Assembly: GCA_963666205.1 (NCBI GenBank)
Contig: OY762654.1
Location: forward strand, 1,776,752-1,840,751
Source of the DNA: Synergistales bacterium
Lineage (GTDB): Bacteria > Synergistota > Synergistia > Synergistales > JAFGMB01
DNA: 64,000 nucleotides
Direction: 5' to 3'
Part shown: positions 4,747-27,747 of the stretch, piece by piece
Layout of the letters: the number at the start of each line of letters is the position of its first letter
Position numbering within the stretch: position 1 is the stretch's first letter
Translations under genes and position numbers: made by a program
The notes under the pieces: model-generated
The model's input: only the letters and a program-made list of their open reading frames with translations
Told to the model about the DNA's origin: nothing
Database searches by the model: none

Positions 4747-5907
4747 ATGATAAAGACCAGGAAACTTGTAATGATCCCGGGACCGACTCCGGTGGTTCGT
4801 TCGATCCAGGATCAGATGGGCAGGGAAACGGTGGCCTTTGGAGATTCGGGTTTTGTGGAAGATTTTTCTGAGGTTCTTGCAGATCTTAAAGAATTGTGGA
4901 AATGCGATGGAGAAGTGTTTGTGGTGGCAGGGTCGGGAACGTTAGCTATGGAAATGGCAATAGCCAATACGACCAAACGTGGTGACAGCATACTGATCTG
5001 TTCCAATGGATTTTTTGGTGATCGTTTTATAGATATGTGCGAGAGGAAAGGCCTTGATGTAGATGTTCTTTCTGCCGAGTGGGGAAGCAGCGTGACCCCT
5101 GAAATGGTAGAGGCAAAACTTGAAGAGAAGAAATATGATGCGGTAACGGTAACCCATGCGGAGACTTCCACTGGAGTTGTAGCGCCGATAGGAGCTATTG
5201 GAGAGGTTCTGAAAAAACATCCTGAAACTATTTATATTGTGGATGCGGTAGCCGCAGCCGCAGGAATAGAAGAGAAGGTAGACCCCATGGGAATAGATAT
5301 ACTTCTTACATGTTCCCAGAAAGCTTTCGGAGTTGCCCCCGGACTTGGGATAGTATGGGCCAGCAGAAAGGCAATGGCCAGAAGGGAAAGCCTTGGAAAG
5401 ATCCCCGAGTCATATATAGATTTTGATAAATGGCTTCCTGTAATGCATGACCCCAGGAAATACTGGGGAACTCCTCCCATTAACATGATATGGGCTTTTA
5501 AGGAAGCTATCCGCATAATCAGGGAAGAGGGAATAGAGGAGCGATATGCCCGTCACATAAGGCAGGCAGCGATGTTTGACGGAGCTATGGAAAGTCTTGG
5601 TTTTGAAGTGGCAGCCGAGGAAGGATACCGGGCTCCGACCCTTTCTGTATATAAGTATCCTGGGGGTGCTGAAGTGGATGATGCCAGTTTCCGATCGGTA
5701 CTTGGGGAAGAGGGAGTAGAGTCGGCAGGCTGCCTTGGCAAGTACAAGGGAGTAGCCTTCAGAATGGGTCATATGGGCAATATAGACAAGCACACCCTGG
5801 TTTCTGCAATAGCAGCAGTGGAGAGGGCCTGCATGAGATGCGGAGTGGAGATAGAACCCGGCAGGGCTGTGGGAACCCTTCAGAGGGGTCTCGTCAACGA
5901 ACACTGA
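4747..5907 (+). CDS. class V aminotransferase (serine-pyruvate / alanine-glyoxylate aminotransferase family)
   Basis: ORF track 4696..5907. MIPGPTPV N-terminus and SQKAFGVAPGLG PLP-lysine motif. The ATG at 4747 lies 9 nt after AGGAGG, so the upstream 17 aa are treated as a spurious extension. Confidence 0.85.
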   Translation: MIKTRKLVMIPGPTPVVRSIQDQMGRETVAFGDSGFVEDFSEVLADLKELWKCDGEVFVVAGSGTLAMEMAIANTTKRGDSILICSNGFFGDRFIDMCERKGLDVDVLSAEWGSSVTPEMVEAKLEEKKYDAVTVTHAETSTGVVAPIGAIGEVLKKHPETIYIVDAVAAAAGIEEKVDPMGIDILLTCSQKAFGVAPGLGIVWASRKAMARRESLGKIPESYIDFDKWLPVMHDPRKYWGTPPINMIWAFKEAIRIIREEGIEERYARHIRQAAMFDGAMESLGFEVAAEEGYRAPTLSVYKYPGGAEVDDASFRSVLGEEGVESAGCLGKYKGVAFRMGHMGNIDKHTLVSAIAAVERACMRCGVEIEPGRAVGTLQRGLVNEH

Positions 5908-9527: not shown

Positions 9528-9606
9528 GCTGTGGTAAAATAATCCTGCCTTAATCGAGTTTTCCATCAGGTTGGTTTCATCCTTTTTCTTTGAAGGTGGG
9601 TTTGTT

Positions 9607-12360
9607 ATGACCGGAGACGAAAGAAACAGAATTTCCTCAGAACGGAGTCCCTCCGTGGAAAAACCCGTCCTTGAAAGTGAAAAGGTGCCCTGCTCTTCTG
9701 AAGAGAAAGGTAGCGGCCTCCGTCGGGAGATGCATATACCCCTGGGATTAAGCAGTCTGATATCCTTCCTCATAACCGATATTCAGGGAGAGGAAGCTTC
9801 TATAATGTCAACAAGCAGCGGAGCAGAACGACTTTTCGGTTATGGTCCGTCTGAAATGGCGGGTCAGCTCCTTTCGTCCATTATGGTTCCAGACAGGGTG
9901 TGCCGCCTTCCTGTTATTTTCGGCAAACTATCGGCCACTAAAGAGGGATACAGTTCAGAGACAGTCCTTGCAAAGCGATCGGGAGAACTTTTTCCTGCGC
10001 ATCTTAAGGTCTATCCTGTGCATGATAAAGATGGTAATGTGGTACAGGCCCTTTTTTTTATCACCGACCTTTCCTCCCGTAAAAAACTTGAAAAGGAACT
10101 CTCCAGGAGCGAGGAAAAATTCCGTATTCTCATTGAGAATTCTCTTGATATCATAACCATCCTTGATCACGATGGAACAGTGACCTATCACAGCCCTTCT
10201 GTCAGGGATGTCCTCGGTTATGAAAAGGGTGAACTGCAAAGAGCCAATATTTTTGACAACATACATCCTGAAGATTTCCCTGCGACTATGTCCGCCCTCG
10301 CTGAAGTATCTAAAGATCCAGGTATTCCAAAGGTCCTTGAACATCGTTTCAGAGATAGTTCCGGGGCCTGGAAGATATTTGAGAGCCGGGGTAAGGCTCT
10401 TATATCCGGTTCTGGCCTTGAAGGGATAATTGTAAATTCCAGGGATATTTCCGACAGAAAGGAAGCAGAGAGGGAACTTTCCCGCCGTCTTCATTTTGAG
10501 GAGACCCTTTCGGAAATATCAACAAGATTTGTCCTGACACAATATCTGGATGAAGCGATCAACACTTCCCTTGAACAGCTCGGTCTTTTCAGTTGCGCAA
10601 GTCGTGCCTATATTTTTACAATTGACAGGAAATCCGGAACAATGAGCAATACCCATGAATGGTGTTACAAGGATATAGAGCCCCAGATAGATCATCTCCA
10701 GTTCCTTCCTCTCAATAGCTTTCCATGGTGGATGAAAAGACTTGAAGAAGATGGAGAGATAGTTATTCAGGATGTATCCAGCCTTCCTCCGGAGGCATCT
10801 GCCGAGAAGACTATCCTCCAGGAACAGGGGATAAGATCCATCCTCGTACTTCCCTTTTATTGTGCCAATTCGATCAGGGGTTATGTGGGTTTCGACAATG
10901 TGATCTCCACCTGGGCCTGGGAAAAGAAGGACATAAGACTTCTCAAGGTCTATGCACATATCCTTGGCCAGGCTTTTGAAAAAAATGAAACTTTCCGTTC
11001 CTATCAGTCCAGCCTCCAGTTCAACCTCAGTCTTCTCAACAGTTCTCCAAACCCGATAATGGTTCTTGATGCACAAGGTTCAATAACCTATGTAAATCCT
11101 TCCTTTGGCAGGGTATCAGGCTATACCTTAAAGGAAGTCAGGGGCATGAGAGCCCCTTATCCCTGGTGGCCTGAAGATGACGTGGAGGATTGCCTCCGGG
11201 AACATGAAGCCCTCTTAAGAGGTAATAGTACAGCAGGAGAGAAACGGTTTATATCCAGCAAGGGAGAGACTTTCCGGGTTTACATAAATAGCTCTCTTAT
11301 AAATGGAGAAGAAGGGGAGAACCATTTCCTGGTTAACTGGCTCGATATCACAGAGCGGTATCGGGCAGAGAGGGCTCACAGGGCTTCAGAGGAAAAATAC
11401 AGATCTCTCGTGGAAAACCTGAATGAAATAATTTATTCACTCAACAGGGAAGGACATATCACTTTTATAAGCCCTGTTGTAAAAGCATTGCTTGGATATG
11501 AAACATCGGAGATGGAGGGATGCGCCTTTACTTCCTTTGTTCACGAAGATGACAGTTACGCTGTGGAGGCAAGCCTGAAGGACCGGTGGGCTGGCATTCC
11601 GGAAAAGTATGAGCTCCGCATGATCAGCAATGAAGGTAAAGTACATCACGTGCTGGTTTCGTCAAGACCCCAGTTTGACGGAAATAACGTAGTTGGTGTT
11701 ATCGGCTCCCTCAGCGATATCACAGCCCAGAGGGAAACGGAGATCAAACTGGAGGCAAGTTACAGAAAGCTTGATGAATTGATGGATGGAGCCGCATCTT
11801 CCATAGTGTCTCTTCTGGAGATAAGAGATCCCTATTCAGCCGGACATCAGAGACGGGTATCCATACTCGCTACGGCAATTGCAAAGGAAATGAAGCTTAA
11901 GGAAGAACAGGTGGAAAATGTAAGAATTTCCAGCCTTGTCCACGATATAGGAAAGATCCATATACCAGCTGAGATACTCAGTAAGCCATCAAAGCTGAGA
12001 AAAACGGAATTCGAACTTCTCAAGGCTCATCCCCGCTCGGGTTCTGAGGTCATACATAAATTCGCTTTCCCTGAGATCATCGGAGAAATAGTGCTCCAGC
12101 ATCATGAGAGATTCGACGGTTCGGGTTATCCGGATGGTCTGAAGGGACAGGAAATACTGCTTGAGGCCAGGATCCTTGCCGTGGCAGATGTTGTGGAAGC
12201 TATGGTTTCCCATAGACCCTATCGTCCGGCCCACAGTTTTGATGAAGCCCTGGAGGAGATCTCTTCAAAGAGCGGCATTCATTTCGACCCTGAAGTTGTA
12301 GTTGCCTGTATCAGTGTCTTTTCAAAAAAAGGGTTCTTCGCAGGGTCTTCCAGTATCTGA
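9607..12360 (+). CDS. multidomain sensor, PAS-PAS-GAF-PAS-PAS-HD-GYP (putative c-di-GMP phosphodiesterase)
   Basis: ORF track 9571..12360. The ATG at 9607 lies 7 nt after AAGGTGG. Four PAS-like segments, for example ENSLDIITILDHDGTVTYHSP and NLNEIIYSLNREGHITFISP. A GAF-like segment, then C-terminal HDIGKIHIP and HHERFDGSGYPDGL (HD-GYP). Confidence 0.85.
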   Translation: MTGDERNRISSERSPSVEKPVLESEKVPCSSEEKGSGLRREMHIPLGLSSLISFLITDIQGEEASIMSTSSGAERLFGYGPSEMAGQLLSSIMVPDRVCRLPVIFGKLSATKEGYSSETVLAKRSGELFPAHLKVYPVHDKDGNVVQALFFITDLSSRKKLEKELSRSEEKFRILIENSLDIITILDHDGTVTYHSPSVRDVLGYEKGELQRANIFDNIHPEDFPATMSALAEVSKDPGIPKVLEHRFRDSSGAWKIFESRGKALISGSGLEGIIVNSRDISDRKEAERELSRRLHFEETLSEISTRFVLTQYLDEAINTSLEQLGLFSCASRAYIFTIDRKSGTMSNTHEWCYKDIEPQIDHLQFLPLNSFPWWMKRLEEDGEIVIQDVSSLPPEASAEKTILQEQGIRSILVLPFYCANSIRGYVGFDNVISTWAWEKKDIRLLKVYAHILGQAFEKNETFRSYQSSLQFNLSLLNSSPNPIMVLDAQGSITYVNPSFGRVSGYTLKEVRGMRAPYPWWPEDDVEDCLREHEALLRGNSTAGEKRFISSKGETFRVYINSSLINGEEGENHFLVNWLDITERYRAERAHRASEEKYRSLVENLNEIIYSLNREGHITFISPVVKALLGYETSEMEGCAFTSFVHEDDSYAVEASLKDRWAGIPEKYELRMISNEGKVHHVLVSSRPQFDGNNVVGVIGSLSDITAQRETEIKLEASYRKLDELMDGAASSIVSLLEIRDPYSAGHQRRVSILATAIAKEMKLKEEQVENVRISSLVHDIGKIHIPAEILSKPSKLRKTEFELLKAHPRSGSEVIHKFAFPEIIGEIVLQHHERFDGSGYPDGLKGQEILLEARILAVADVVEAMVSHRPYRPAHSFDEALEEISSKSGIHFDPEVVVACISVFSKKGFFAGSSSI

Positions 12361-12381: not shown

Positions 12382-12921
12382 TCACCGCCATCGACCTCTA
12401 CCTCCCGGACCCCGGCCATGACCGCCCTTTCTTCCAGGACCGAAACCTGAACATGGAGGTCCTGCGATGTCATTTTCGGGGAAATTTCTATGGCATTCAT
12501 CGCAGACGGCCGCTATTTCCAGTGTCTGGGGGAGGAAGTGAAATGCCTCTTCCTCAACCCATTTCCTGACCATAGCCTCTTTGCCTGTTTCATCCTCCAT
12601 GTGTATTACCTTGCCGCAGATCCTGCAGTATACGTGAAAGTGCATCTTTTGACCTGGAAGTTCAAAACGGTAAAACCCTTCCTCCAAATTAACCAGGTTC
12701 AGGAGCCCAAGCCTGGATAGAAGGTTTACAGTACGGTAGATGGTGGCGATCCCGATAGTCGGGTCCTCTGCCTGCGCCAATTCCCTGAGATCGTTAACGC
12801 TGCAATGTTTTCCCGAGTTTTCGATGAGGGTCCTTATGATGATTTCCCGCTGACTGGTAAGGCGGAAGCCCCTTTTTTTCAGTTCTTCCCTATATTGGTC
12901 GCTCAGCTTTCCAGGTAACAT
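12382..12921 (-). CDS. fur: Fur family transcriptional repressor with an unusual C-terminal Gly/Arg-rich extension
   Basis: 179 aa. Fur-type winged helix (LTSQREIIIRTLIENSGKHCSVNDL..IATIYRTVNLL) and CRIC...CDEC structural zinc motifs. About 30 extra residues end in AGPPCSGFGPGRKGGHGRGPGGRGRWR. GGAGGA RBS. A near-consensus Fur box lies in its own promoter region. Confidence 0.85.
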   Translation of the reverse strand: MLPGKLSDQYREELKKRGFRLTSQREIIIRTLIENSGKHCSVNDLRELAQAEDPTIGIATIYRTVNLLSRLGLLNLVNLEEGFYRFELPGQKMHFHVYCRICGKVIHMEDETGKEAMVRKWVEEEAFHFLPQTLEIAAVCDECHRNFPENDIAGPPCSGFGPGRKGGHGRGPGGRGRWR

Positions 12922-12970
12922 CTTGTTCCTCCAGAAGGTTATGTTCTCTTTATGAATTTTACATTGACCC

Positions 12971-13000
12971 TTGACAATATAACATATACAGGTCTAGAAT
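12971..13000 (+). promoter_or_regulatory. sigma70-type promoter of the DUF5320 / MinD-Fer4 operon
   Basis: TTGACA (12971-12976), an 18-nt spacer, then TAGAAT (12995-13000). It overlaps the divergent fur promoter face to face. Confidence 0.55.
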
Positions 13001-13005
13001 GCTAA
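12976..13005 (-). promoter_or_regulatory. candidate promoter of the fur-family gene
   Basis: Minus strand reads TTAGCA (13005-13000), an 18-nt spacer, then TGT-TATATT (extended -10; TATATT at 12981-12976). The -35 element directly abuts the Fur box at 13006-13020. Confidence 0.45.
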
Positions 13006-13020
13006 TGATAATCATTATCA
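13006..13020. promoter_or_regulatory. Fur box (operator site 1)
   Basis: TGATAATCATTATCA is a perfect 7-1-7 palindrome. The 19-mer at 13001-13019, GCTAATGATAATCATTATC, matches the classical Fur consensus GATAATGATAATCATTATC at 18 of 19 positions. The box starts 6 nt after the -10 hexamer. Confidence 0.75.
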
Positions 13021-13234
13021 CTAATTGAATCTCCTGATATGCGATACATGAGTAATGATCCTGTATTTCCGACTCTGGTTTTGCTGACACTATTTTTGTA
13101 AGTATTGTACTGGAGTTTCCAGAGAAACGGGTTTCTTCTGGCCATTCTGAATTTACTTATCCTGATCATGTATTGCTATAAGAGGACAATACATCTTTCC
13201 AAAGGGAGAGATGAACTTCAAGGAGGCGATACAA

Positions 13235-13510
13235 ATGCCGAGATTTAACGGAAGAGGGCCAAGAGGTATGGGTCCCGGAACAGGATGGGGCCTTGGTCCC
13301 TGTGGAGCAGGCAGAGCCTGGGGCCGTGGAGGCGGATATGGGTATGGCTGGAGAGTGCCTATGGCAGACAGTGGTTATTATCCTCCATATGCTGCGCCTG
13401 TACAGCCTGCACCCCAGGATGAAAAGGTCTTTCTTCAGGATCAGCTGGACTATCTTGAATCTGAAGTCAGGCGGATACGGGAAAGAATGGATGATCTCGA
13501 TAAGGCTTAA
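13235..13510 (+). CDS. DUF5320-like protein (Gly/Arg-rich N-terminus plus C-terminal coiled coil)
   Basis: ORF track 13211..13510. The ATG at 13235 lies 8 nt after AAGGAGG. Starts MPRFNGRGPRGMGPGTGWGLGPCGAGRAWGRGGGYGYGWR and ends with the helical LQDQLDYLESEVRRIRERMDDLDKA. This is the DUF5320 architecture as I recall it. Confidence 0.7.
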   Translation: MPRFNGRGPRGMGPGTGWGLGPCGAGRAWGRGGGYGYGWRVPMADSGYYPPYAAPVQPAPQDEKVFLQDQLDYLESEVRRIRERMDDLDKA

Positions 13511-13548
13511 CCCTGATCTTTTCTTCTTACCCCATGTTAACTTTCTTT

Positions 13549-13584
13549 AAGAGAGGGGAGTTTTCTCTCCTCTCTTGATTTTGT
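13549..13584 (+). terminator. hairpin / partial terminator between DUF5320 and the first ATPase gene
   Basis: AAGAGAGGGGAG (13549-13560), loop TTTT, CTCTCCTCTCTT (13565-13576). This gives 12 bp including one G-U pair. T-rich GATTTTGTCTGTTT follows. Confidence 0.5.
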
Positions 13585-13687: not shown

Positions 13688-14542
13688 GTGATCTCGGAAA
13701 TGTTTCGAATAGCAGTTGCAAGCGGCAAGGGAGGTACCGGAAAAACGTGTGTTGCCTCATCACTTGCATTGACGGCAGGTCAGGCTGTTGCCGTTGATGT
13801 GGATGTGGAAGAACCCAACCTTGCTATTCTTATGGGAACAGAAATGAGACATCATCTTGATGTTACAGTACCTCTTCCCGTAATAAATGAAGATAAATGT
13901 ACAAAATGTGGTAAATGTGCCGAGGCCTGCCGTTTTGGAGCCCTGGCCATTTTTCCTGACAAATATCCTATCCTTAACAGTTCTCTCTGTAATGGTTGCG
14001 GTACATGTTCTATTGTCTGTCCATATTCTGCCATAACTGAAACGAAAAGAGTAGTTGGAGAATTGAATTACGGGGAAGAAGGATCTATCAGGATACTTGA
14101 AGGGCGTCTTAATGTAGGTGTCTACAATGCCATACCTATCATCGAGAAGACTCTTAATGAAGCTGAAAAATGGGACACTACCCATGTGATAGACTGTTCT
14201 CCCGGCACATCCTGTCCCATGGTGGCAGCGGTGGGGCGGGCCGATTATGTGGTTTTAGTGACAGAACCGACTCCCTTTGGCCTGGCGGATCTTGCTCTTG
14301 CCCTTACGGTGGTCAGGGATCTTGGCATACCGGCAGGAGTAGTGGTCAACAGGGCAGATCTTTCCGGAGGGGATCTGGGTCCTCTATGTGACAAGTTCGG
14401 AGTGGATGTTATTGCCAGTCTGCCCTTTTCAAGACAGGTCGCGAAAGCCTATGCCAGTGGTATTTCCCCAATCAGGGTCGATGCAAACTGGCGGGAGGCT
14501 ATGAAAAAAGTATTAAACAGGGCAGAGGAGGCACTTCAATGA
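13688..14542 (+). CDS. MinD/ParA-type P-loop ATPase with inserted 2x[4Fe-4S] ferredoxin domain
   Basis: 284 aa. Deviant Walker A ASGKGGTGKT, then CTKCGKCAEACRFGAL and CNGCGTCSIVCPYSAI cluster motifs. GTG at 13688 or ATG at 13700 are possible starts. Confidence 0.85.
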   Translation: MISEMFRIAVASGKGGTGKTCVASSLALTAGQAVAVDVDVEEPNLAILMGTEMRHHLDVTVPLPVINEDKCTKCGKCAEACRFGALAIFPDKYPILNSSLCNGCGTCSIVCPYSAITETKRVVGELNYGEEGSIRILEGRLNVGVYNAIPIIEKTLNEAEKWDTTHVIDCSPGTSCPMVAAVGRADYVVLVTEPTPFGLADLALALTVVRDLGIPAGVVVNRADLSGGDLGPLCDKFGVDVIASLPFSRQVAKAYASGISPIRVDANWREAMKKVLNRAEEALQ

Positions 14543-15414
14543 GACCTCGTGAAGTTGTTATTGTAAGCGGCAAGGGGGGTACGGGAAAGACATCCCTTTC
14601 TTCGGTTCTCTGTGCAAAGGCAGCCGGAAAAGCCGTTTTTGCAGATACTGACGTTGACGCGCCGGATCTCTGGATACTTCTTAAGCCCGAAGAAAAGAAG
14701 CGTTTTGTTTTCCACGGTCTTGAAAAGGCAAAGGTTGATCAGGGAAAATGTATAGGCTGCGGAAAATGTGCCCGAACCTGCCGATTCAACGCCATAGAAC
14801 TCCAGGATGGAAAGGCTTTTGTTAACACCACTTTCTGTGAGGGCTGTGCGGCCTGCACTTATGTTTGCCCCACGAAATGTATTTCCCTTGAGCAGATAAC
14901 ACAGGGGCATTACTTTTACGGTGAGACAGAGCATGGTCCCATGTGGCATGCTCTCCTTGATCCGGGTGGAGAGAATTCTGGAATGCTTGTTTCACTCATC
15001 AGAAGATCTTCAGCTGAAACCGCAGAGGATATGGGGCTTCCCCTGATAGTGATTGATGGACCTCCCGGAGTTGCCTGTCCGGCTATATCGACCCTCACAG
15101 GAGCTGACCTGGCGGTTGTTGTAACGGAGCCGACCCTTTCGGGCTGGCACGATCTCAAAAGAGTCGGAGAACTCTGTCGGCAGTTGAGAGTTCCCATGAC
15201 CGTAGTGATAAACAAGTACGATCTTGCCCCCGATGAAGCCGAAAATATTTCCCGGAAATGCCAGGATAGCAATTGGCCTGTTCTGGGTATGATACCCTTC
15301 CGCAGGGAAGTTGTAGATGCTGTTTCACAGGCCCGGATCCCGGTGGAGGAACTATCTCCGGAGATCAACGTGATCTGGAGGGCAATAAAAACTCATACAG
15401 GTTTAGATATCTGA
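14539..15414 (+). CDS. MinD/ParA-type P-loop ATPase with inserted 2x[4Fe-4S] ferredoxin domain (paralogue)
   Basis: 291 aa. SGKGGTGKT, CIGCGKCARTCRFNAI and CEGCAACTYVCPTKCI. Its start overlaps the previous stop (ATGA at 14539-14542), which implies translational coupling. Confidence 0.85.
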   Translation: MRPREVVIVSGKGGTGKTSLSSVLCAKAAGKAVFADTDVDAPDLWILLKPEEKKRFVFHGLEKAKVDQGKCIGCGKCARTCRFNAIELQDGKAFVNTTFCEGCAACTYVCPTKCISLEQITQGHYFYGETEHGPMWHALLDPGGENSGMLVSLIRRSSAETAEDMGLPLIVIDGPPGVACPAISTLTGADLAVVVTEPTLSGWHDLKRVGELCRQLRVPMTVVINKYDLAPDEAENISRKCQDSNWPVLGMIPFRREVVDAVSQARIPVEELSPEINVIWRAIKTHTGLDI

Positions 15415-15443: not shown

Positions 15444-15776
15444 ATGATAGCAGTATCATCCGATGGTAATTCCCTTTCAAGCATGATAGCCTCCCGTTTT
15501 GCAAGGGCGGCCTTCTTCCTCATTTTTGACGATGAGGGCAAGCTGCTGGAGGCCATGCCTAACGATACTTCAGATGTGGCTCATGGCGCTGGAGGCAGGG
15601 CTGTTCAACTGCTTTCAGCTAAAAAGGTGACATCTGTGGTGGGTCCCATGTTCGGCCCCAATGCCTGTGTAGCCCTCAAGGCTGCGGGCATAAAGGCCTT
15701 TGAGGCCAGGGATATGACTGTTGAAGATGCAGTCAAAAAGGTTCTCCAGGGCGAAATGAAGGAAATGGTTTTTTAG
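15444..15776 (+). CDS. NifB/NifX/NifY-fold protein (dinitrogenase FeMo-cofactor-biosynthesis domain, 'orange protein'-like)
   Basis: 110 aa. IAVSSDG...SRFARAAFFLIFD...GAGGRAVQLL..KVTSVV...GPNACVALKAAGIKAF pattern typical of the NifX/NifB C-terminal family. Confidence 0.75.
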   Translation: MIAVSSDGNSLSSMIASRFARAAFFLIFDDEGKLLEAMPNDTSDVAHGAGGRAVQLLSAKKVTSVVGPMFGPNACVALKAAGIKAFEARDMTVEDAVKKVLQGEMKEMVF

Positions 15777-15814: not shown

Positions 15815-15842
15815 GGCCCCACTACGGTGGGGTCTTTTTTTT
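15815..15842 (+). terminator. rho-independent terminator after the NifX-fold gene
   Basis: CCCCAC (15817-15822), loop TACG, GTGGGG (15827-15832), followed by a run of T ending at 15842. Confidence 0.7.
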
Positions 15843-15853
15843 GGGGAAAGTAC

Positions 15854-15882
15854 TTGCTATATACCCCTTAGGAGCATATAAT
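15854..15882 (+). promoter_or_regulatory. sigma70-type promoter of the twin ferredoxin genes
   Basis: TTGCTA (15854-15859), a 17-nt spacer, then TATAAT (15877-15882). Confidence 0.6.
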
Positions 15883-15887
15883 GCTAT

Positions 15888-15902
15888 TGATAATCAATAT
15901 CA
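15888..15902. promoter_or_regulatory. Fur-box operator site 3
   Basis: TGATAATCAATATCA is 14/15 identical to site 1. It starts 6 nt after the -10 hexamer, the same spacing as site 1. It is embedded in TTGATAATCAATATCAATATTCAATATC. Confidence 0.65.
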
Positions 15903-15954: not shown

Positions 15955-16200
15955 ATGCCATGGGTGAGAGATGATCTTTGTGTTAATTGTGGTAAGTGTA
16001 TAGAGTCCTGTTCTTCGGGAGCCATATCCATGAAGGGTGGAAAAGCCTTGGTATCTCAGGAAAAATGTATTAAATGTGGGGCATGTATGCCTGTTTGTCC
16101 TGAGGGTGCTATAAGGCCGAATTCAGAAAATCCGGCCTTGGCTGGTAGATCTGGAGCGGGATATGGTTTTGGCCAGGGAATGAGCCGTTTGAGAAAGTAG
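15955..16200 (+). CDS. 2x[4Fe-4S] ferredoxin with Gly-rich C-terminal tail
   Basis: 81 aa. CVNCGKCIESC and CIKCGACMPVCP motifs. Tail AGRSGAGYGFGQGMSRLRK. AGGAGG RBS. Confidence 0.8.
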   Translation: MPWVRDDLCVNCGKCIESCSSGAISMKGGKALVSQEKCIKCGACMPVCPEGAIRPNSENPALAGRSGAGYGFGQGMSRLRK

Positions 16201-16211
16201 AGAGGTCTATT

Positions 16212-16565
16212 ATGCCCTGGATATCCCCTGAAAAATGCGTTGGTTGTGGAATATGCGTACATAAGTGTCCTGTCGGAGCGATCTCCATCAGGTATAGTGC
16301 CGCAGAACTGGATATGGACCAGTGTATTCGCTGTGGAATATGTCATGACGTATGTCCCAGAATGGCAATAAGACATGATAGTGAGCGGATTCCACGGGAG
16401 ATTCAGTCTAATCTTGAAAAAGCGGAAAGATCAATGGCGGAATGTGTAAGGTTGCTGGGAAATCCCAATGAAAGAATTAAGTGTCATGAAAGGCTGGTAA
16501 AACATTTCAACAAGGAAAAGATAGTTATCGAAGAAACCCTTAAAGAACTTGAGAGAATCAGGTAG
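16212..16565 (+). CDS. 2x[4Fe-4S] ferredoxin-domain protein with helical C-terminal extension
   Basis: 117 aa. CVGCGICVHKCP and CIRCGICHDVCP motifs. It starts MPW like its neighbour. The C-terminal 55 aa or so are charged and helical. Confidence 0.8.
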   Translation: MPWISPEKCVGCGICVHKCPVGAISIRYSAAELDMDQCIRCGICHDVCPRMAIRHDSERIPREIQSNLEKAERSMAECVRLLGNPNERIKCHERLVKHFNKEKIVIEETLKELERIR

Positions 16566-16716: not shown

Positions 16717-17670
16717 TTGAACAAGGAGCGTATCAGGAATTTCCCCATTTCCTTTTTTGCGGTTTCCATGGGGATCACCGGAGTTGTTCTTATGGTCGAA
16801 AAGATGGAACATCTGATTCTCATTCCCCACATTTTTTCGAGTTTCCTTTTATTGTTTTCCCTTGCCCTTTTCGTAATCATCAGTGGTTTGTATTTTACAA
16901 AGGTCTTTTCCTATCCCCGTGTTGTGGCAGAAGAACTTCTGCATCCCATAAAAATGCACTTTCTTCCCACTTTTTCGGTGAGCCTTCTTCTTCTGTCAGT
17001 AGCTTTTCTTGGAGAATATCCCGTCCTTTCGAAATCATTCTGGATACCAGGGACGGTTTTACATTTGATCATTACCCTTTACACATTATCCAGCTGGGTA
17101 CAGCGCCAGGATTTTGAAATTCAGCATGCCAATCCATCCTGGTTCATACCCATCCTTGGAAATCTGATAATTCCGGTTGCGGGAGTGATCCATGCCCCTC
17201 TTGAATTGAACTGGTTTTTCTTTAGTGTGGGTTTATTTTTCTGGGTACTCCTTTTTGCTGTATTGCTCAACAGGATCATATTTCATCATCCCATTCCAGA
17301 AAAACTTATCCCAACCTTCTTCATTCTCATGGCTCCGCCTGCAGTTGCTTTTATCTCCTATGTCAAGCTTACCGGAAGGATAGATCTCTTTGCCCAATCT
17401 CTCTATTCCCTTGCTCTTTTCATGTTTCTCTTTGTGATCAGCCAGTTGAAACTTTTTGCAGGGATCAGGTTTTATCTGTCATGGTGGGCCTATTCCTTTC
17501 CCCTCGCAGCCCTGGGACTTGCCTCTTCCCTTATTTTTTCGAAAACGGAGAGGGTCTATTACCAGTATGGAGCCATATTTTTCTTTATCATCCTTCTGGG
17601 GGTGGCCGGCTTTCTCGTATTCCTCACAATAGGACAGATTAAGGCAGGCAGGATCTGCGTTGAAGAATAA
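16717..17670 (+). CDS. TehA/TDT (tellurite-resistance / dicarboxylate, SLAC1-like) family anion channel/transporter
   Basis: 317 aa, TTG start. About 10 hydrophobic helices. N-terminal IRNFPISFFAVSMGITG is typical of the TDT family. Confidence 0.75.
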   Translation: MNKERIRNFPISFFAVSMGITGVVLMVEKMEHLILIPHIFSSFLLLFSLALFVIISGLYFTKVFSYPRVVAEELLHPIKMHFLPTFSVSLLLLSVAFLGEYPVLSKSFWIPGTVLHLIITLYTLSSWVQRQDFEIQHANPSWFIPILGNLIIPVAGVIHAPLELNWFFFSVGLFFWVLLFAVLLNRIIFHHPIPEKLIPTFFILMAPPAVAFISYVKLTGRIDLFAQSLYSLALFMFLFVISQLKLFAGIRFYLSWWAYSFPLAALGLASSLIFSKTERVYYQYGAIFFFIILLGVAGFLVFLTIGQIKAGRICVEE

Positions 17671-17860: not shown

Positions 17861-18421
17861 TTACAGTATGTTTTTCCCAGCTTCTTTAAGGTCTGCGATG
17901 AGTACTTCATCTTCAGATGCTTCATTTTTAGTGTACAGGTCAGGGTAGCAGAATTCTCCGGTTATCTCCATTTCCAGGAGCTTGCACGATTCCCTGAAAG
18001 AAAATAGAAGTCCGTCAAAGCAGCTCTCATGACTATCTCCTGCACTTGCAACAAGAATGGCCTTTTTCCCTTTAAGTGCCGAAAGAGCTTCATCAGAAAC
18101 GAAGGGTACCAGTCTGTCAAGAACCGGTTTTATCTGAGAGCTCCATGAGTACCAGTACAAGGGTGTAGCAAAGATAACAGTATCAGCTTCTGCGAGGGAT
18201 TCATAGATATTATCCATCTCATCGTCTATTATGCAGGGACGTCCTCCGCTCCAGCATTTCCGGCAGTCAAGGCATCCATCGATGGTCATGTCTCCCAGGC
18301 GGAACCTGTCTATCTCAACATCTCCATCGAACTCTGATACCAGAGCTTCGGCCATGGTTTCACTGTTCCCGCCCTTTCGGGGACTTCCAAGAAGCAAGCA
18401 GATCCTTTTCATAGTTTTCAT
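17861..18421 (-). CDS. flavodoxin-like fold FMN reductase / iron-sulfur flavoprotein family
   Basis: 186 aa. ICLLLGSPRKGGNSETMAEAL FMN-binding N-terminus and a compact Cys motif CLDCRKCWSGGRPC. Confidence 0.8.
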   Translation of the reverse strand: MKTMKRICLLLGSPRKGGNSETMAEALVSEFDGDVEIDRFRLGDMTIDGCLDCRKCWSGGRPCIIDDEMDNIYESLAEADTVIFATPLYWYSWSSQIKPVLDRLVPFVSDEALSALKGKKAILVASAGDSHESCFDGLLFSFRESCKLLEMEITGEFCYPDLYTKNEASEDEVLIADLKEAGKNIL

Positions 18422-18825
18422 CTCCTTTTTTCTTTTTTCTCTATCCTCAGAAAAACGCCTTTCCTGTAACTGTTGTTCTCAAGATCTTTCCTGATATTCT
18501 CTGTTGCTTCGATAAGCCTGGCTATGTCTACCTGTCTGAAACAGGGTCCGTATTGTTGAAGAAGTCCTGTTCCTGAATCAAGCAGGGTCTTCGCACCTCT
18601 TGTATTATCTCTGCTGAGATGATACATCGCAACAGCTAAATGGAGCAATCCCTGGTAAAAGGATCGTATTTGGGAATCTCCGAACCCCCACAGGTGTTCC
18701 ATAACATCATGACAACGGTAAAATTCCCCTTTGTTGAAAAGATCTATTCCGTAATCGAGGATTTCAGTTTCTTTCCACAAGACCAGATCATCAATGGGAG
18801 TATTTCCATTTATTCTTTCCAGCAT
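18418..18825 (-). CDS. DUF309 domain protein
   Basis: ORF track 18418..18906. FNKGEFYRCHDVMEHLW...FYQGLLHLAVAMYHL matches the DUF309 pattern. The first 27 aa of the ORF are translated AT-rich promoter-like DNA, so the start is moved to the ATG at 18825. It overlaps the downstream gene by 4 nt. Confidence 0.6.
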   Translation of the reverse strand: MLERINGNTPIDDLVLWKETEILDYGIDLFNKGEFYRCHDVMEHLWGFGDSQIRSFYQGLLHLAVAMYHLSRDNTRGAKTLLDSGTGLLQQYGPCFRQVDIARLIEATENIRKDLENNSYRKGVFLRIEKKEKRR

Positions 18826-18885
18826 GGGTTTCACCGTCCCTTTGTAACAGTTTAGGAAAAATATTTGAAATAGTAAAACTTTTTC

Positions 18886-18914
18886 TTGACTTATTGAAGA
18901 ATACATAATACATT
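18886..18914 (+). promoter_or_regulatory. candidate promoter of the orphan gene at 18952
   Basis: TTGACT (18886-18891), a 17-nt spacer, then TACATT (18909-18914). Confidence 0.35.
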
Positions 18915-25016: not shown

Positions 25017-26222
25017 ATGGATACCAGGCTCCAGAAACTTCTTTCCCATGTCTCTACAGAAGAACTTGCAGAGTTGACAAGCCGTTTTATCAGGATCCCC
25101 AGCCACTGGGATGTGCCGGACAAGGAAGTCGAAATGGTAAAGGCTGTGGTTGCATTCCTTGATTCGGAAAATATACCCTATGAACTCGATCATGTCGAAG
25201 GAGAAAGGTACAATATAATCGCCTGTCTCAAGGGGACTGGCGGAGGCAGCAGCCTTTCCCTTGCCGGACATCTCGATACGGTACCGCCCTATAATATGAA
25301 GGTTGACCCCTTTGGAGGAAAGATCGAGGGGGACCGTGTATGGGGCCGTGGAACGGTAGACATGAAAGGTGCAGATGCATGTATGCTCCTGACATTGGCT
25401 GCATTCAAAAGGTCAGGAATAGAGCTTGCAGGGGACCTCTATTTTGCAGGTGTTCTTGCTGAAGAGACCAACAGCGATGGAGCCGAGTCCCTTATCGAAT
25501 CAGGATTCAGAACAGATGGCGTAATAATCGGAGAACCGTCAGGTATCCAGTATTCCATAGGACACCGTGGCCTGGAATGGATCGAAGTGGAATTCTTCGG
25601 AAAAACTGCACATGGCGGAGTTCCGGAAGAAGGAGTCAATGCCATCCTGCAAGCCACCAGATTTATTACAAGGGTCCAGGAAAAGATAGTACCCATGCTC
25701 AAAGAGCGTTACCATCCCCATATGGGCCCCTCAGTAATGAACTTCGGTAAAATTGAGGGAGGTCTTCAACCGAGTACAGTAGCAGGAAGTTGTACCCTCC
25801 AGCTTGATCGGCGATACCTGCCCTGGGAATCGGTAACCAGTCTTATGAAGGAATACCAGGATGTAATTGATGAACTATCTGCGGAAGATCCCACATTCAA
25901 AGCCGAACTCCGTCTTCTCGATATAGGAATTATGAACAAATATGAACATGTGGCCCTTGAAACTTCCCCCGACGAACCCATCGTAGATGCCATAAAATAT
26001 GCACTCTCCGAAGTTCACGGAAAGCCGGCAGAACTCTCCACCAAGCATGGCTGGACCGATGCCGCTCTTTTCAGACATTACGGAAATATGCCCACAGTAG
26101 TCTATGGTCCTGGAGACCTAGTCAGGGCCCACGGACCGGAGGAATATATAACTTTCAAAGAACTTGAGGATGGTTTCAGGACATATCTTCTTGCGTCCAT
26201 GAAGTTTTGTGGAGTCTGCTGA
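25017..26222 (+). CDS. M20 family metallohydrolase (ArgE/DapE/acylase-type deacylase)
   Basis: 401 aa. LAGHLDTVP, GRGTVDMKG and LAEETNSDG metal-ligand motifs. Confidence 0.85.
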   Translation: MDTRLQKLLSHVSTEELAELTSRFIRIPSHWDVPDKEVEMVKAVVAFLDSENIPYELDHVEGERYNIIACLKGTGGGSSLSLAGHLDTVPPYNMKVDPFGGKIEGDRVWGRGTVDMKGADACMLLTLAAFKRSGIELAGDLYFAGVLAEETNSDGAESLIESGFRTDGVIIGEPSGIQYSIGHRGLEWIEVEFFGKTAHGGVPEEGVNAILQATRFITRVQEKIVPMLKERYHPHMGPSVMNFGKIEGGLQPSTVAGSCTLQLDRRYLPWESVTSLMKEYQDVIDELSAEDPTFKAELRLLDIGIMNKYEHVALETSPDEPIVDAIKYALSEVHGKPAELSTKHGWTDAALFRHYGNMPTVVYGPGDLVRAHGPEEYITFKELEDGFRTYLLASMKFCGVC

Positions 26223-26242
26223 AAAAAGGGACCATTATTCCA

Positions 26243-27716: not shown

Positions 27717-27747
27717 TTGACTTAAAACATATTGATATCTATTATCA
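27717..27747 (+). promoter_or_regulatory. promoter with overlapping Fur-box-like site 4
   Basis: TTGACT (27717-27722), a 17-nt spacer, then TATTAT (27740-27745). TGATATCTATTATCA (27733-27747) is 12/15 identical to site 1 and covers the -10. Confidence 0.45.

What the first reader, a model, noticed from the sequence alone, without database searches (positions are those of the whole stretch)
12385..13354. The same Gly/Arg-rich, Cys-containing segment sits on the repressor tail, the DUF5320 N-terminus and a ferredoxin tail
Seen in the sequence:
- The Fur-family protein extends about 30 aa past its CDEC zinc motif. It ends AGPPCSGFGPGRKGGHGRGPGGRGRWR (12385-12465, minus strand).
- The divergent DUF5320-like protein begins MPRFNGRGPRGMGPGTGWGLGPCGAGRAWGRGGGYGYGWR (13235-13354).
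- Both run P-C-(S/G)-(G/A), then GRG repeats, then G/R-W-R.
- Ferredoxin 15955-16200 ends AGRSGAGYGFGQGMSRLRK (16141-16197).

Inference: this may be a shared docking or cluster-binding peptide, for example for the MinD-type ATPases. It may instead be an RGG-like nucleic-acid or condensate motif. Either way, the regulator could sense or compete for the same partner as DUF5320. I do not know of a described Fur-family protein with such a tail. That is a statement about my own knowledge, not a search result.
Basis: partly seen in the sequence, partly recalled or inferred. Interest (0 to 1): 0.6.

Follow-up and report, generated by a model that had tools for sequence, protein, structure and literature searches.

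The report
Iron regulator with cationic glycine-arginine tail
A Fur-type iron regulator in an Acetomicrobium genome carries a conserved, disordered, positively charged tail of the kind found on the metal-sulfide-handling proteins it controls, so the tail may tie gene control to that cargo, but it is not a copy of the neighbour's peptide.

Summary
The Fur-family gene (12382-12921, minus strand) extends 36 aa past its last CxxC, and this is not an assembly error. All 27 distinct members of this Fur subfamily carry a 26-51 aa tail (Arg 22%, Gly 17%, Cys 5.5%). Generic Furs stop within 18 aa.

Where contigs allow, the tailed Furs sit beside two MinD-ferredoxin ATPase genes and usually a Nitro_FeMo-Co gene, an orange-protein (ORP)-like cluster. 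Perfect and near-perfect Fur boxes lie 5 nt after the -10 of two promoters in the cluster.

"The same segment" is not supported as homology:
- The tail lacks DUF5320's invariant motif.
- It scores 2.6 bits against a DUF5320 N-terminal profile.
- The cysteine is not conserved.
- The ferredoxin tail is unexceptional in glycine content.

Gly/Arg/aromatic disordered segments are nevertheless a hallmark of this system. Nitro_FeMo-Co+DUF5320 fusions are widespread. The published IssA tail is proposed to bind anionic thioferrate. An unrelated regulator family, long DUF134, carries a similar C-terminal tail next to such clusters.

My best reading (confidence 0.38) is a cargo- or assembly-binding tail that modulates repression. 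The main rival is extra DNA affinity. Function is untested.

The parts
12382..12921 (-). Fur-family transcriptional regulator, 179 aa. The core (aa 1-152) has pI 5.9 and carries two CxxC pairs and an H-x-H.
   Evidence: Pfam PF01475 E=3.9e-25 over aa 16-135. PDB Fur hits 5e-21 and weaker. AF2 gives the Fur fold with pLDDT 70-90 in the core. pI.
12385..12492 (-). C-terminal tail after the last CxxC (aa 144-179). The Gly/Arg-rich part is aa 153-179 (12385-12465): AGPPCSGFGPGRKGGHGRGPGGRGRWR, pI 12.
   Evidence: Read directly from the sequence. AF2 pLDDT is 32-44 for aa 155-179. The tail is conserved in cationic character in 27 distinct subfamily members. It is the top G+R/K 20-mer in the window.
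12971..13000 (+). Sigma70-like promoter P1 (TTGACA-18 nt-TAGAAT) facing the DUF5320 operon.
   Evidence: Matches 11 of 12 consensus positions. The block is conserved in L010, L006 and L005 (alignment A4). This is a consensus match only; the transcription start is not shown.
13006..13020 (.). Perfect 7-1-7 Fur box TGATAATcATTATCA, 5 nt downstream of the P1 -10 element.
   Evidence: Zero mismatches. The window has 4 sites at <=2 mismatches against 0.47 expected. The box lies in columns invariant across four loci. Perfect boxes also lie upstream of tailed Furs in L004-7, L010, L020, L022 and L023.
13235..13510 (+). DUF5320 protein, 91 aa. It has a disordered Gly/Arg/aromatic N-terminal half (13235-13354), a Pro-rich linker and a C-terminal helix.
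   Evidence: Pfam PF17253 E=7.8e-18. Family alignment A3 shows invariant G8 P9 G13 G17 W18 G19 G21 P22 C23. AF2 gives pLDDT about 42 for aa 1-50 and about 90 for the helix at 60-90.
13547..13578 (+). Terminator-like hairpin after the DUF5320 gene. It may act as an attenuator before the ATPase genes.
   Evidence: Pattern scan only.
13688..14542 (+). MinD/CbiA-type P-loop ATPase with an inserted 2x[4Fe-4S] ferredoxin domain (Orp3/Orp4-like).
   Evidence: Pfam CbiA, ParA and Fer4 hits. Conserved next to every tailed Fur with enough contig.
14539..15414 (+). Second MinD/CbiA-ferredoxin ATPase, overlapping the first gene by 4 nt.
   Evidence: Pfam.
15444..15776 (+). Nitro_FeMo-Co (NifX/IssA/orange-protein fold) single-domain protein, 110 aa, without a tail.
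   Evidence: Pfam PF02579 E=7.1e-16.
15854..15902 (+). Second promoter P2 (TTGCTA-17 nt-TATAAT, 15854-15882) followed 5 nt later by Fur box TGATAATCAATATCA (15888-15902, 1 mismatch). A hairpin plus T-run at 15815-15842 precedes it.
   Evidence: Fur box. Promoter and hairpin were read from the sequence. The geometry matches P1.
15955..16200 (+). 2x[4Fe-4S] ferredoxin, 81 aa, with a 19-aa cationic tail AGRSGAGYGFGQGMSRLRK (16141-16197, pI 11.7).
   Evidence: Pfam Fer4. The tail is kept in the L006 orthologue as AGRSGAGYGFGQGKNRF and in L010. pI.
16212..16565 (+). Second ferredoxin-like protein with a helical C-terminal extension and no Gly/Arg tail.
   Evidence: Pfam Fer4. Orthologues are present in L006 and L010.

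Best explanation
The window comes from an Acetomicrobium-like member of the Synergistota. It holds an orange-protein (ORP)/IssA-type metal-sulfide-cluster-handling operon. The operon encodes DUF5320, two MinD-ferredoxin ATPases, a Nitro_FeMo-Co protein and two ferredoxins.

The operon is repressed by a dedicated Fur-family protein through canonical Fur boxes placed 5 nt after the -10 of two promoters. This regulatory layout is inferred from sequence geometry and conservation.

In Synergistota this Fur has gained a 26-51 aa disordered, strongly cationic C-terminal tail. In the Acetomicrobium and Aminivibrio lineages the tail is Gly/Arg/Trp-rich. In most other lineages it is poly-Arg with a C-x3-4-C motif.

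The tail is not a copy of the DUF5320 N-terminus. It belongs to the same physicochemical class as the Gly/Arg/aromatic disordered segments that mark this system: DUF5320, Nitro_FeMo-Co+DUF5320 fusions and the IssA tail.

Inferred mechanism: the tail binds the anionic metal-sulfide material (thioferrate-like or thiometallate), or the protein assemblies built around it, that the operon's proteins handle. Occupancy of the Fur boxes would then depend on the state of that cargo as well as on the metal site of the Fur core. The cargo could neutralise or sequester the tail.

What is shown: the tail, its conservation of character, its genomic linkage, its predicted disorder and the operators. What is inferred: the ligand and the regulatory effect.
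For: - The tail is specific to this subfamily. All Synergistota members have it (L010-L023, P0001-8, and 7 of the 9 representatives at E<=1e-30). Sixty-six generic Furs end within 18 aa of the last CxxC, and solved Furs within about 10 aa.
- The subfamily always sits beside a MinD-Fer4 pair where the contig allows, usually with Nitro_FeMo-Co and DUF5320.
- What is conserved is charge and composition, not sequence: R 21.7%, G 16.7%, C 5.5%, W 2.1%, net +3 to +10 in the last 20 aa. That fits electrostatic binding to a polyanion without fixed geometry. This is how the IssA tail, rich in Gly, Arg and Trp with a single Cys, is proposed to bind (FeS2-)n (PMC5524996).
- DUF5320 is the free-standing form of a tail fused to Nitro_FeMo-Co in very many proteins. 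A search gave 7197 hits, and the best 120 all carry PF02579+PF17253 with (GMGRG)n repeats.
- An unrelated regulator family, long DUF134, carries a conserved tail PLPPFG.GRG.GRRFRGGRRW-COOH beside such clusters in Chloroflexota (59 variants). A Lys/Arg/Trp version occurs in a Patescibacteria-like contig.
- A ferredoxin, which does not bind DNA, sits in the same Fur-controlled unit and also has a cationic Gly-rich tail.
- The Aminivibrio Fur tail shares the octapeptide GMGRGWGG with its neighbouring DUF5320.
- Cysteine enrichment is not expected for a plain DNA-binding tail.
- AF2 predicts both the tail and the DUF5320 N-half as disordered.
- Orange-protein-family proteins bind anionic metal-sulfide clusters non-covalently (PMC6345978).
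Against: - There is no experimental or structural evidence for any ligand of the tail.
- Both tailed protein families are DNA-binding regulators, so extra DNA affinity explains the same distribution.
- Tail-less regulators control similar clusters: the Sporohalobacter Fur P0010, P0054 and a short DUF134. The tail is therefore not required for regulating such clusters.
- Thermovirgaceae keep a tail with no DUF5320 in the fetched flanks (up to 8 kb each side) and a tail-less Nitro_FeMo-Co protein.
- The test for co-evolution of the tail with its own DUF5320 is not significant (p about 0.05-0.08) and is driven by one genome.
- Order-level similarity between Fur tails and DUF134 tails is not above shuffles.
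- A canonical Fur box predicts ordinary Fe(II)-dependent repression without any need for a second input.
- I could not retrieve the IssA tail sequence itself for a direct comparison.
Confidence: 0.38

Rival explanations
1. The tail is a non-specific DNA-binding extension. The Arg-rich disordered tail contacts the phosphate backbone or minor groove next to the AT-rich Fur box. This raises affinity or changes search kinetics, and it has no link to the operon's cargo.
For: - The tail sits on a DNA-binding protein, and the second tailed family (DUF134) is also an HTH regulator.
- Poly-Arg runs such as CRCRRRRRMRRGFM and CCGRRRRRC look like nucleic-acid binders.
- What is conserved is charge, not sequence.
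- The tail persists in Thermovirgaceae without a nearby DUF5320.
- The operators are AT-rich.
Against: - None of 66 generic Furs and none of the solved Furs has such a tail. It is not a common solution for Fur-DNA binding.
- Cys (5.5%) and Trp enrichment are not explained.
- A non-DNA-binding ferredoxin and DUF5320 in the same unit carry the same kind of segment.
- There is no AT-hook core (R-G-R-P) in the window tail.
- The C-terminus of the Fur dimerisation domain points away from DNA in known complexes. This last point is from my own knowledge and was not tested here.
Confidence: 0.3
2. The tail is a docking or ATPase-stimulating peptide for the two MinD-type ATPases. It would resemble the basic flexible termini of ParA/MinD partner proteins. 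DUF5320 (basic disordered N-terminus plus coiled coil) would be the normal partner and Fur would compete with it.
For: - The MinD-Fer4 pair is the one constant neighbour of all tailed Furs.
- DUF5320's layout, a disordered basic N-terminus followed by a coiled coil, resembles ParA partner proteins. That resemblance is from memory, not a test.
Against: - The tail diverges rapidly while the ATPases and the DUF5320 N-motif stay conserved in the same genomes. A site-specific docking peptide should co-vary with, or be conserved like, its partner.
- The DUF5320 hallmark motif is absent from the tail.
Confidence: 0.12
3. The tail is a cysteine-based metal or Fe-S cluster site. In a Fur dimer, two tails with C-x3-4-C would give four thiolates to bridge a cluster, making the regulator a direct Fe-S sensor.
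For: - Most non-Acetomicrobium members have C-x3-4-C inside the Arg run, for example RPKCGRLCRRRGRGW, RPICEKRCKK, GPCLRRRCRR and CTHCGCGRRRRGC.
- Cys makes up 5.5% of tail residues.
Against: - In the window's own clade the tail has one Cys (window, L010) or none (P0002-P0004, L006). The Aminivibrio tail has none in its Gly/Arg part.
- This therefore cannot be the conserved function of the window's tail. It may be an ancestral or parallel function in other lineages.
Confidence: 0.1
4. The tail is a neutral low-complexity expansion (GGN/CGN codon slippage) at the gene's 3' end with no selected function. The resemblance to the neighbours reflects local sequence composition.
For: - The primary sequence turns over fast.
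- Profile and alignment scores are close to shuffled controls.
Against: - The tail has been kept for the whole depth of the subfamily (36-96% identity, several Synergistota families). Its length is bounded at 26-51 aa, the net charge is always positive and an acidic linker precedes it.
- Generic Furs never have it.
- The window's G+C content is only about 45%, so Gly/Arg codon runs are not a compositional default.
Confidence: 0.08

Closest known systems
C-terminal tail of IssA (Pyrococcus furiosus PF2025), the iron-sulfur storage protein (PMC5524996)
   Same: - Disordered, cationic and rich in Gly, Arg and aromatic/Trp residues, with a single Cys.
- Chemical character is conserved but sequence is not.
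- Belongs to a Nitro_FeMo-Co (IPR003731) system.
- The window tail has 27.5% Gly in its last 40 aa and pI 12, which matches the compositional criteria used for the IssA clade.
   Different: - The IssA tail is about 70 aa and fused to the Nitro_FeMo-Co domain itself, not to a transcription factor.
- It has a Pro-rich spacer.
- Its thioferrate link is experimental, whereas nothing is known for the Fur tail.
- I could not obtain the IssA sequence for a direct alignment.
DUF5320 (PF17253), the divergent neighbour
   Same: - A Gly/Arg/Trp-rich disordered segment containing a P-C-G element and ending near G-W-R.
- Encoded 313 bp away and controlled by the same operator.
   Different: - DUF5320 has an invariant N-terminal motif (G8 P9 G13 G17 W18 G19 G21 P22 C23) and a C-terminal coiled coil.
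- The Fur tail has neither, gives no Pfam hit and evolves much faster.
Canonical Fur/PerR/Zur regulators (solved examples 9IRE, 4ETS, 2XIG, 2FE3)
   Same: - Winged-helix plus dimerisation fold and two CxxC pairs.
- His94 and His96 of the His cluster are kept.
- A textbook 7-1-7 Fur box overlaps the promoter.
   Different: - They end within about 10 aa of the last CxxC.
- Two of the four His/Asp positions of the H-H-D-H cluster are Met and Phe here.
- This protein scores below every NCBIfam equivalog cut-off.
Orange-protein (ORP) complex of Desulfovibrio vulgaris (Orp3/4/8/9; PMC6345978, PMC3897727)
   Same: Two MinD-like ATPases with 2x[4Fe-4S] motifs plus a single-domain Nitro_FeMo-Co protein in one cluster, with divergent transcription from a shared control region.
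   Different: - The Desulfovibrio cluster is activated by sigma54, the enhancer-binding protein DVU2106 and IHF. Here the cluster has sigma70-like promoters with Fur boxes.
- No MrpORP-type gene lies in the operon here.
- I could not check whether DUF5320 is part of the Desulfovibrio cluster.
Long-form DUF134 regulators found here (L091 4624-5097, L172-L174, L176)
   Same: - A DNA-binding regulator next to a DUF5320 / Nitro_FeMo-Co / MinD-Fer4 cluster.
- A Cys4 zinc motif, then a spacer of about 10 aa, then P-P-F-G-x-G-R-G ... R-R-W at the C-terminus.
- Four of seven Acetomicrobium-clade Fur tails show the same two features, P[PS][FC]x0-2G and a Trp in the last four residues. Composition-matched shuffles show both features in 0.1-0.5% of cases. 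This comparison was chosen after seeing the data.
   Different: - The DNA-binding fold is unrelated.
- The DUF134 tail is well conserved in sequence, unlike the Fur tail.
- An HMM of DUF134 tails does not score Fur tails above shuffles.
Eukaryotic RGG/RG boxes, AT-hooks, and basic tails of ParA/MinD partner proteins (from my own knowledge)
   Same: Arg/Gly-rich disordered segments that bind polyanions, drive assemblies or stimulate P-loop ATPases.
   Different: - There is no R-G-R-P AT-hook core.
- The window tail has only two RG dipeptides.
- These are analogies only and were not tested.

Membership tests
Fur family (PF01475) | Profile match to the winged-helix plus dimerisation domain | tested here: met
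   Pfam E=3.9e-25 over aa 16-135. There are 23 PDB Fur/PerR/Zur hits. AF2 gives the matching secondary structure.
Fur family (PF01475) | Two CxxC pairs forming the structural Zn(Cys)4 site | tested here: met
   C99, C102, C140 and C143 are invariant or nearly invariant in alignments A1, A2 and A5.
Fur family (PF01475) | Regulatory metal site (His/Glu/Asp cluster around H-H-D-H) | tested here: inconclusive
   H39, E87, H94 and H96 are conserved. The positions aligned to the other His and Asp of C. jejuni Fur are M93 and F95. Metal identity cannot be decided from sequence.
Fur family (PF01475) | Cognate operator of Fur-box type at target promoters | tested here: met
   A perfect TGATAATnATTATCA lies at 13006-13020 and a 1-mismatch copy at 15888-15902, each 5 nt after a -10 element. 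The first box is conserved in orthologous loci. Actual binding was not tested.
DUF5320 (PF17253), applied to the Fur tail | Match to the family profile | tested here: not met
   No hit at E<=10 for the tail alone. The custom N-terminal HMM gives 2.6 bits, with 14 of 500 shuffles equal or better. Other Synergistota tails have z about 0.
DUF5320 (PF17253), applied to the Fur tail | Invariant motif G8 P9 G13 G17 W18 G19 G21 P22 C23 and a C-terminal coiled coil | tested here: not met
   The motif was derived from 32 family members. The tail has only a loose G-P-P-C, its Cys is replaced by Phe in P0002-4, and there is no helix.
DUF5320 (PF17253), applied to the ferredoxin tail | Match to the family profile | tested here: not met
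   No Pfam hit. The custom HMM gives 7.5-8.2 bits, above shuffles (1-2 of 500) but far below any threshold.
IssA-type tail (criteria of PMC5524996 supplement: IPR003731 domain, high pI, few Cys, >=20% Gly in last 40 aa) | Tail attached to a Nitro_FeMo-Co (IPR003731) domain | tested here: not met
   The tail is on a Fur domain. The operon's Nitro_FeMo-Co protein (15444-15776) has no tail.
IssA-type tail (criteria of PMC5524996 supplement: IPR003731 domain, high pI, few Cys, >=20% Gly in last 40 aa) | At least 20% Gly in the last 40 residues and cationic character | tested here: met
   27.5% Gly in the last 40 aa and tail pI 12.0. Whole-protein pI is 8.2 (below the cut-off of 9) and the protein has 6 Cys, because of the Fur core.
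IssA-type tail (criteria of PMC5524996 supplement: IPR003731 domain, high pI, few Cys, >=20% Gly in last 40 aa) | Binds thioferrate / iron-sulfide polyanion | not testable with these tools
   This needs anaerobic biochemistry.
ORP (orange protein) complex cluster | Two MinD-like ATPases with 2x[4Fe-4S] motifs plus a single-domain Nitro_FeMo-Co protein | tested here: met
   Pfam hits for 13688-14542, 14539-15414 and 15444-15776. The description of Orp3/4/8 is in PMC6345978.
ORP (orange protein) complex cluster | MrpORP (Mrp/NBP35 + Nitro_FeMo-Co) gene and sigma54/EBP control | tested here: not met
   No such gene lies between 12.3 and 18.4 kb. The NCBIfam MrpORP model matches only the P-loop region of the ATPase, at 44 bits against a cut-off of 450. 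The promoters are sigma70-like with Fur boxes.
AT-hook | R-G-R-P core flanked by basic residues (definition from my own knowledge) | tested here: not met
   No RGRP occurs in AGPPCSGFGPGRKGGHGRGPGGRGRWR.

The most novel reading that the evidence does not exclude
Transcription factors of two unrelated folds (Fur in Synergistota; long DUF134 in Chloroflexota and Patescibacteria) have each acquired an IssA-like cationic Gly/Arg/Trp disordered tail. The tail lets them read out an inorganic iron-sulfide (thioferrate-like) polyanion, or the protein-mineral assemblies that DUF5320 and Nitro_FeMo-Co proteins build around it. This would be a signal-sensing principle based on electrostatic capture of a mineral-like ligand or on partitioning into an assembly, rather than on a folded ligand pocket.
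Probability: 0.22. Interest if true: 0.8.

Novelty: new variant of a known kind. Interest (0 to 1): 0.58.

Why it matters
DUF5320, the MinD-ferredoxin ATPases and the Nitro_FeMo-Co proteins form one of the most widespread uncharacterised metal-cluster gene sets of anaerobes. Their function and control are largely unknown outside Desulfovibrio and Pyrococcus.

This locus offers a simple, testable regulatory handle: a Fur-type repressor with textbook operators. It also offers a separable 27-aa appendage whose composition matches the system's own disordered segments.

If the tail couples repression to iron-sulfide cargo, three things would follow:
- A physiological ligand for the system would be identified.
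- The IssA thioferrate idea would extend to bacteria.
- A new way for a transcription factor to sense an inorganic polymer or assembly would be shown.

If the tail only adds DNA affinity, the finding reduces to a lineage-specific Fur variant. It would still be useful for annotation, because gene callers mis-frame the Gly-rich genes.

Tried and rejected
- **Frameshift or assembly error at the 3' end.** Rejected. The tail is in frame in independent NCBI, JGI, ENA and Logan assemblies from 96% to 36% identity.
- **Tail as a DUF5320 fragment.** Rejected on four grounds: no Pfam hit, the custom HMM with shuffles, pairwise BLOSUM with shuffles, and the missing hallmark motif.
- **Recent DNA duplication from the DUF5320 5' end.** Rejected. 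Local DNA score is 19 against 17.5+/-3.1 for codon shuffles. The ferredoxin tail versus DUF5320 comparison is marginal (24 against 16.4+/-2.8, 11 of 500).
- **Co-evolution of each Fur tail with its own DUF5320.** Not significant (p=0.05-0.08). Only Aminivibrio stands out.
- **A motif shared by Fur and DUF134 tails, tested by HMM.** Not above shuffles except for P0053. A feature-based comparison looks better but was defined after seeing the data.
- **Direct comparison with the IssA sequence.** I tried the paper's supplement and a homologue search seeded with a Nitro_FeMo-Co+DUF5320 fusion. Neither returned IssA itself.
- **Literature searches.** Searches for DUF5320, DUF134, Fur with Arg-rich extensions, and a Fur regulon including these genes returned nothing relevant. 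Fievet 2011 (PMC3133258) is not held.
- **AT-hook and twin-arginine readings.** Rejected on sequence and position.


Full report
**Observation**

The three peptides are present exactly as described. The Fur-family ORF (12382-12921, minus strand, 179 aa) matches Pfam FUR only over aa 16-135. It continues 36 aa past its last CxxC and ends AGPPCSGFGPGRKGGHGRGPGGRGRWR. The divergent gene (13235-13510) is a DUF5320 protein (E=7.8e-18), and the Pfam profile itself covers its Gly-rich N-terminus. Ferredoxin 15955-16200 ends AGRSGAGYGFGQGMSRLRK.

In the 64-kb window only two of 387 ORFs of at least 60 aa reach 10 Gly in a 20-aa stretch. These are the Fur tail and the DUF5320 N-terminus, which belong to neighbouring genes. 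The Fur tail is also the most Gly+Arg/Lys-rich 20-mer in the window. The ferredoxin tail has 6 Gly in 20 aa, which is unexceptional.

**The locus**

The closest genome match is an Acetomicrobium hydrogeniformans MAG of the Synergistota, with 94% identity for the Fur protein.

Downstream of DUF5320 lie, in order:
- two MinD/CbiA-type ATPases with inserted 2x[4Fe-4S] ferredoxin domains;
- a tail-less 110-aa Nitro_FeMo-Co protein;
- the tailed ferredoxin;
- a second ferredoxin-like protein;
- a SLAC1/TehA-type channel.

This is the gene content of the orange-protein (ORP) complex of Desulfovibrio, Orp3/4/8 (PMC6345978). There is no MrpORP gene here, and the control system differs.

**Regulation**

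A near-consensus promoter (TTGACA-18 nt-TAGAAT, 12971-13000) faces the DUF5320 operon. Five nucleotides after its -10 lies a perfect 7-1-7 Fur box, TGATAATcATTATCA (13006-13020). The block is invariant in three orthologous loci. Perfect boxes also lie upstream of tailed Furs in other Synergistota genera.

A second unit has the same geometry. After a hairpin plus T-run (15815-15842) comes TTGCTA-17 nt-TATAAT (15854-15882), then 5 nt, then TGATAATCAATATCA (15888-15902). This lies just upstream of the tailed ferredoxin.

So the Fur core looks like an ordinary repressor acting at two promoters of this cluster. That reading is inferred from geometry and conservation; binding was not tested.

**Is the tail real and conserved?**

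Yes. Eight protein clusters of 50-96% identity keep it. In a scan of one genome per species, every Synergistota member of the subfamily (L010-L023, 36-94% identity) has 26-51 aa after the last CxxC. The 66 generic Furs from Firmicutes and Campylobacterota have at most 18 aa.

A profile search of 1.84 billion representative proteins finds only nine at E<=1e-30. Seven of them carry such tails. Solved Fur structures end within about 10 aa of the CxxC.

Over 27 distinct tails the composition is Arg 21.7%, Gly 16.7%, Cys 5.5% and Trp 2.1%. Net charge in the last 20 aa is +3 to +10, and an acidic spacer precedes the tail.

The primary sequence is not conserved:
- The Acetomicrobium and Aminivibrio lineages have Gly/Arg(/Trp) tails.
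- Most other lineages have poly-Arg with C-x3-4-C, for example RPKCGRLCRRRGRGW.

AF2 predicts aa 155-179 as disordered, with pLDDT 32-44.

**Linkage**

Every tailed Fur on a long enough contig sits beside the MinD-Fer4 pair, usually with Nitro_FeMo-Co and DUF5320. The Thermovirgaceae loci show no DUF5320 in the stretch fetched around the Fur gene (up to 8 kb each side where the contig allows).

Sporohalobacter has a tail-less Fur at the head of a similar operon. The tail is therefore an addition to an already cluster-linked regulator.

**Is it the same segment as DUF5320?**

No, not as homology.
- Thirty-two DUF5320 proteins share an invariant motif (G8 P9 G13 G17 W18 G19 G21 P22 C23). This is followed by a variable Arg/Gly/aromatic stretch, a Pro-rich linker and a coiled coil. 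AF2 shows a disordered N-half and a confident C-terminal helix.
- The Fur tail lacks the motif and gives no Pfam hit at E<=10.
- It scores 2.6 bits against a DUF5320 N-terminal HMM, and 14 of 500 shuffles do as well. Other Synergistota tails have z about 0.
- Pairwise protein and DNA comparisons are within shuffle range.
- In the same genomes the DUF5320 N-terminus is nearly invariant while the Fur tail changes freely.
- The ferredoxin tail is slightly more DUF5320-like (7.5-8.2 bits, 1-2 of 500 shuffles; 4 of 1000 in pairwise alignment), but these scores are small.

**System-level picture**

In L015 a Nitro_FeMo-Co domain is fused to the Gly/Arg-plus-coiled-coil part of DUF5320 (Pfam 6.6e-25 and 9.3e-11). 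This architecture is very common. A homologue search gave 7197 hits, and the best 120 all carry PF02579+PF17253 with (GMGRG)n repeats.

The only characterised analogue is IssA of Pyrococcus furiosus. It is a Nitro_FeMo-Co domain with a disordered cationic tail rich in Gly, Arg and Trp and containing the protein's only Cys. The tail's chemical character is conserved but its sequence is not, and it is proposed to wrap anionic thioferrate electrostatically (PMC5524996).

Chloroflexota clusters hold three to five DUF5320 paralogues. They also hold small proteins that join the DUF5320 N-motif to a zinc ribbon.

Their regulator belongs to a different family. It is a long DUF134 with a zinc ribbon followed by PLPPFG.GRG.GRRFRGGRRW at the C-terminus. 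This tail is kept in 59 sequence variants. A Patescibacteria-like contig has a Lys/Arg/Trp version next to DUF5320.

An HMM of these DUF134 tails does not score Fur tails above shuffles. Four of seven Acetomicrobium-clade Fur tails do share two DUF134-tail features, P[PS][FC]x0-2G and a Trp in the last four residues. This comparison was chosen after seeing the data.

The Aminivibrio Fur tail shares GMGRGWGG with its own DUF5320. Over nine genomes, however, own-pair similarity is not significant (p=0.05-0.08).

**Mechanism**

The tail is a disordered polycation, so it almost certainly binds a polyanion.

I favour the system's anionic metal-sulfide cargo, or the assemblies built on it, as the ligand, with a modulating effect on repression (confidence 0.38). 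The reasons are:
- the tail's restriction to cluster-linked regulators of two unrelated folds;
- the same kind of segment on non-DNA-binding proteins of the unit;
- the Cys and Trp enrichment.

The main rival is plain extra DNA affinity (0.30), which fits equally well with the fact that both tailed families bind DNA. Docking to the MinD-type ATPases (0.12) is disfavoured by the tail's rapid divergence. Cys-ligated cluster binding (0.10) may hold in C-x3-C lineages but not in the window's clade. Neutral low-complexity drift (0.08) is disfavoured by deep retention with bounded length and constant charge.

**Comparison and novelty**

The protein is a member of the Fur family. Its tail is not a member of DUF5320, and it is not a formal IssA-type protein because it has no Nitro_FeMo-Co domain. 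It resembles the IssA tail in composition.

I found no description of a Fur with such a tail in the searched literature or among solved structures. I rate it a new variant of a known kind.

**Caveats**

All functional statements are inferences. The DUF134 loci are mostly one clade. No interaction modelling was possible.

Noticed in passing
window 15815-15902: Between the Nitro_FeMo-Co gene and the tailed ferredoxin there is a hairpin plus T-run, then TTGCTA-17-TATAAT, then a 1-mismatch Fur box. The -10-to-box spacing (5 nt) is the same as at the DUF5320 promoter. The ferredoxin genes look like a second Fur-controlled unit.
   Followed up: partly
window 27733-27747: A third Fur-box-like site (2 mismatches) lies between a serine dehydratase (alpha+beta, 26207-27622) and a second SDH_alpha-family protein (27868-29166). 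The first is an Fe-S enzyme and I assume the second is too; that is from my own knowledge, not tested. This hints that the regulator may have targets beyond the cluster.
   Followed up: partly
L015 9128-9685; proteins P0198-P0317: Nitro_FeMo-Co fused to the Gly/Arg-repeat and coiled-coil part of DUF5320 is a very common architecture (7197 hits, best 120 all with both Pfam domains). The fusions carry (GMGRG)n repeats. DUF5320 therefore looks like the detachable tail of IssA-like proteins.
   Followed up: partly
L091 4624-5097; L090 5141-5635; L172-L174; L176 6451-6936; L092-L171: Long-form DUF134 regulators carry a zinc ribbon and a conserved C-terminal tail PLPPFG.GRG.GRRFRGGRRW next to DUF5320 / Nitro_FeMo-Co / MinD-Fer4 clusters. 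In a Patescibacteria-like contig the tail is GHGFGKRWWGRKKWKGERK. A short DUF134 (L175 10084-10365) has neither the ribbon nor the tail.
   Followed up: partly
L090 6625-6855; L091 6829-7050; L172 5972-6196; L174 5821-6045: Small proteins join the DUF5320 N-terminal hallmark motif (MPxGDGTGPxGxGPGTGRG) to a C-terminal Cys4 zinc ribbon instead of a coiled coil. The N-motif is therefore a mobile module.
   Followed up: no
window 13285-13550 (+); L006 4935-5231 (-): The GGN-rich DUF5320 coding region opens long alternative-frame ORFs. In L006 and L007 the public gene call took the wrong frame (98 aa, no Pfam hit) and missed the real DUF5320 (4894-5181).
   Followed up: yes
L019 (Aminivibrio MAG): Fur tail and DUF5320: The Fur tail PAMGMGRGWGGRGRGRGRGRMGMGRGPAK and the neighbouring DUF5320 share the exact octapeptide GMGRGWGG. 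This could reflect local recombination or convergent selection.
   Followed up: partly
window 13547-13578: A terminator-like hairpin lies directly after DUF5320 and before the ATPase genes, followed by weak promoter-like sites. DUF5320 may be expressed at a higher level than the rest of the operon.
   Followed up: no
window 9571-12360 (+): A 929-aa multi-PAS HD-GYP-type (HD_5) protein converges on the Fur gene with 21 bp between the stop codons. The same neighbour is kept in L005 and L006, so it may be functionally linked.
   Followed up: no
L001-L003 6581-6991: In Thermovirga the slot after Fur holds a 136-aa Cys-rich protein with an N-terminal hydrophobic, signal-like segment and no Pfam match, instead of DUF5320. 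Its start overlaps the end of the Fur tail coding region.
   Followed up: no
L022 versus L023: A contig binned as 'uncultured Smithella sp.' carries the same Fur, DUF5320 and tail as a Synergistaceae MAG contig. This is probably a binning error.
   Followed up: no
window 16717-17670, 17861-18421, 18418-18906: A SLAC1/TehA-type anion channel, an FMN reductase/flavodoxin-like protein and a DUF309 protein flank the cluster. SLAC1 and the FMN reductase recur in orthologous loci (L006, L005).
   Followed up: no
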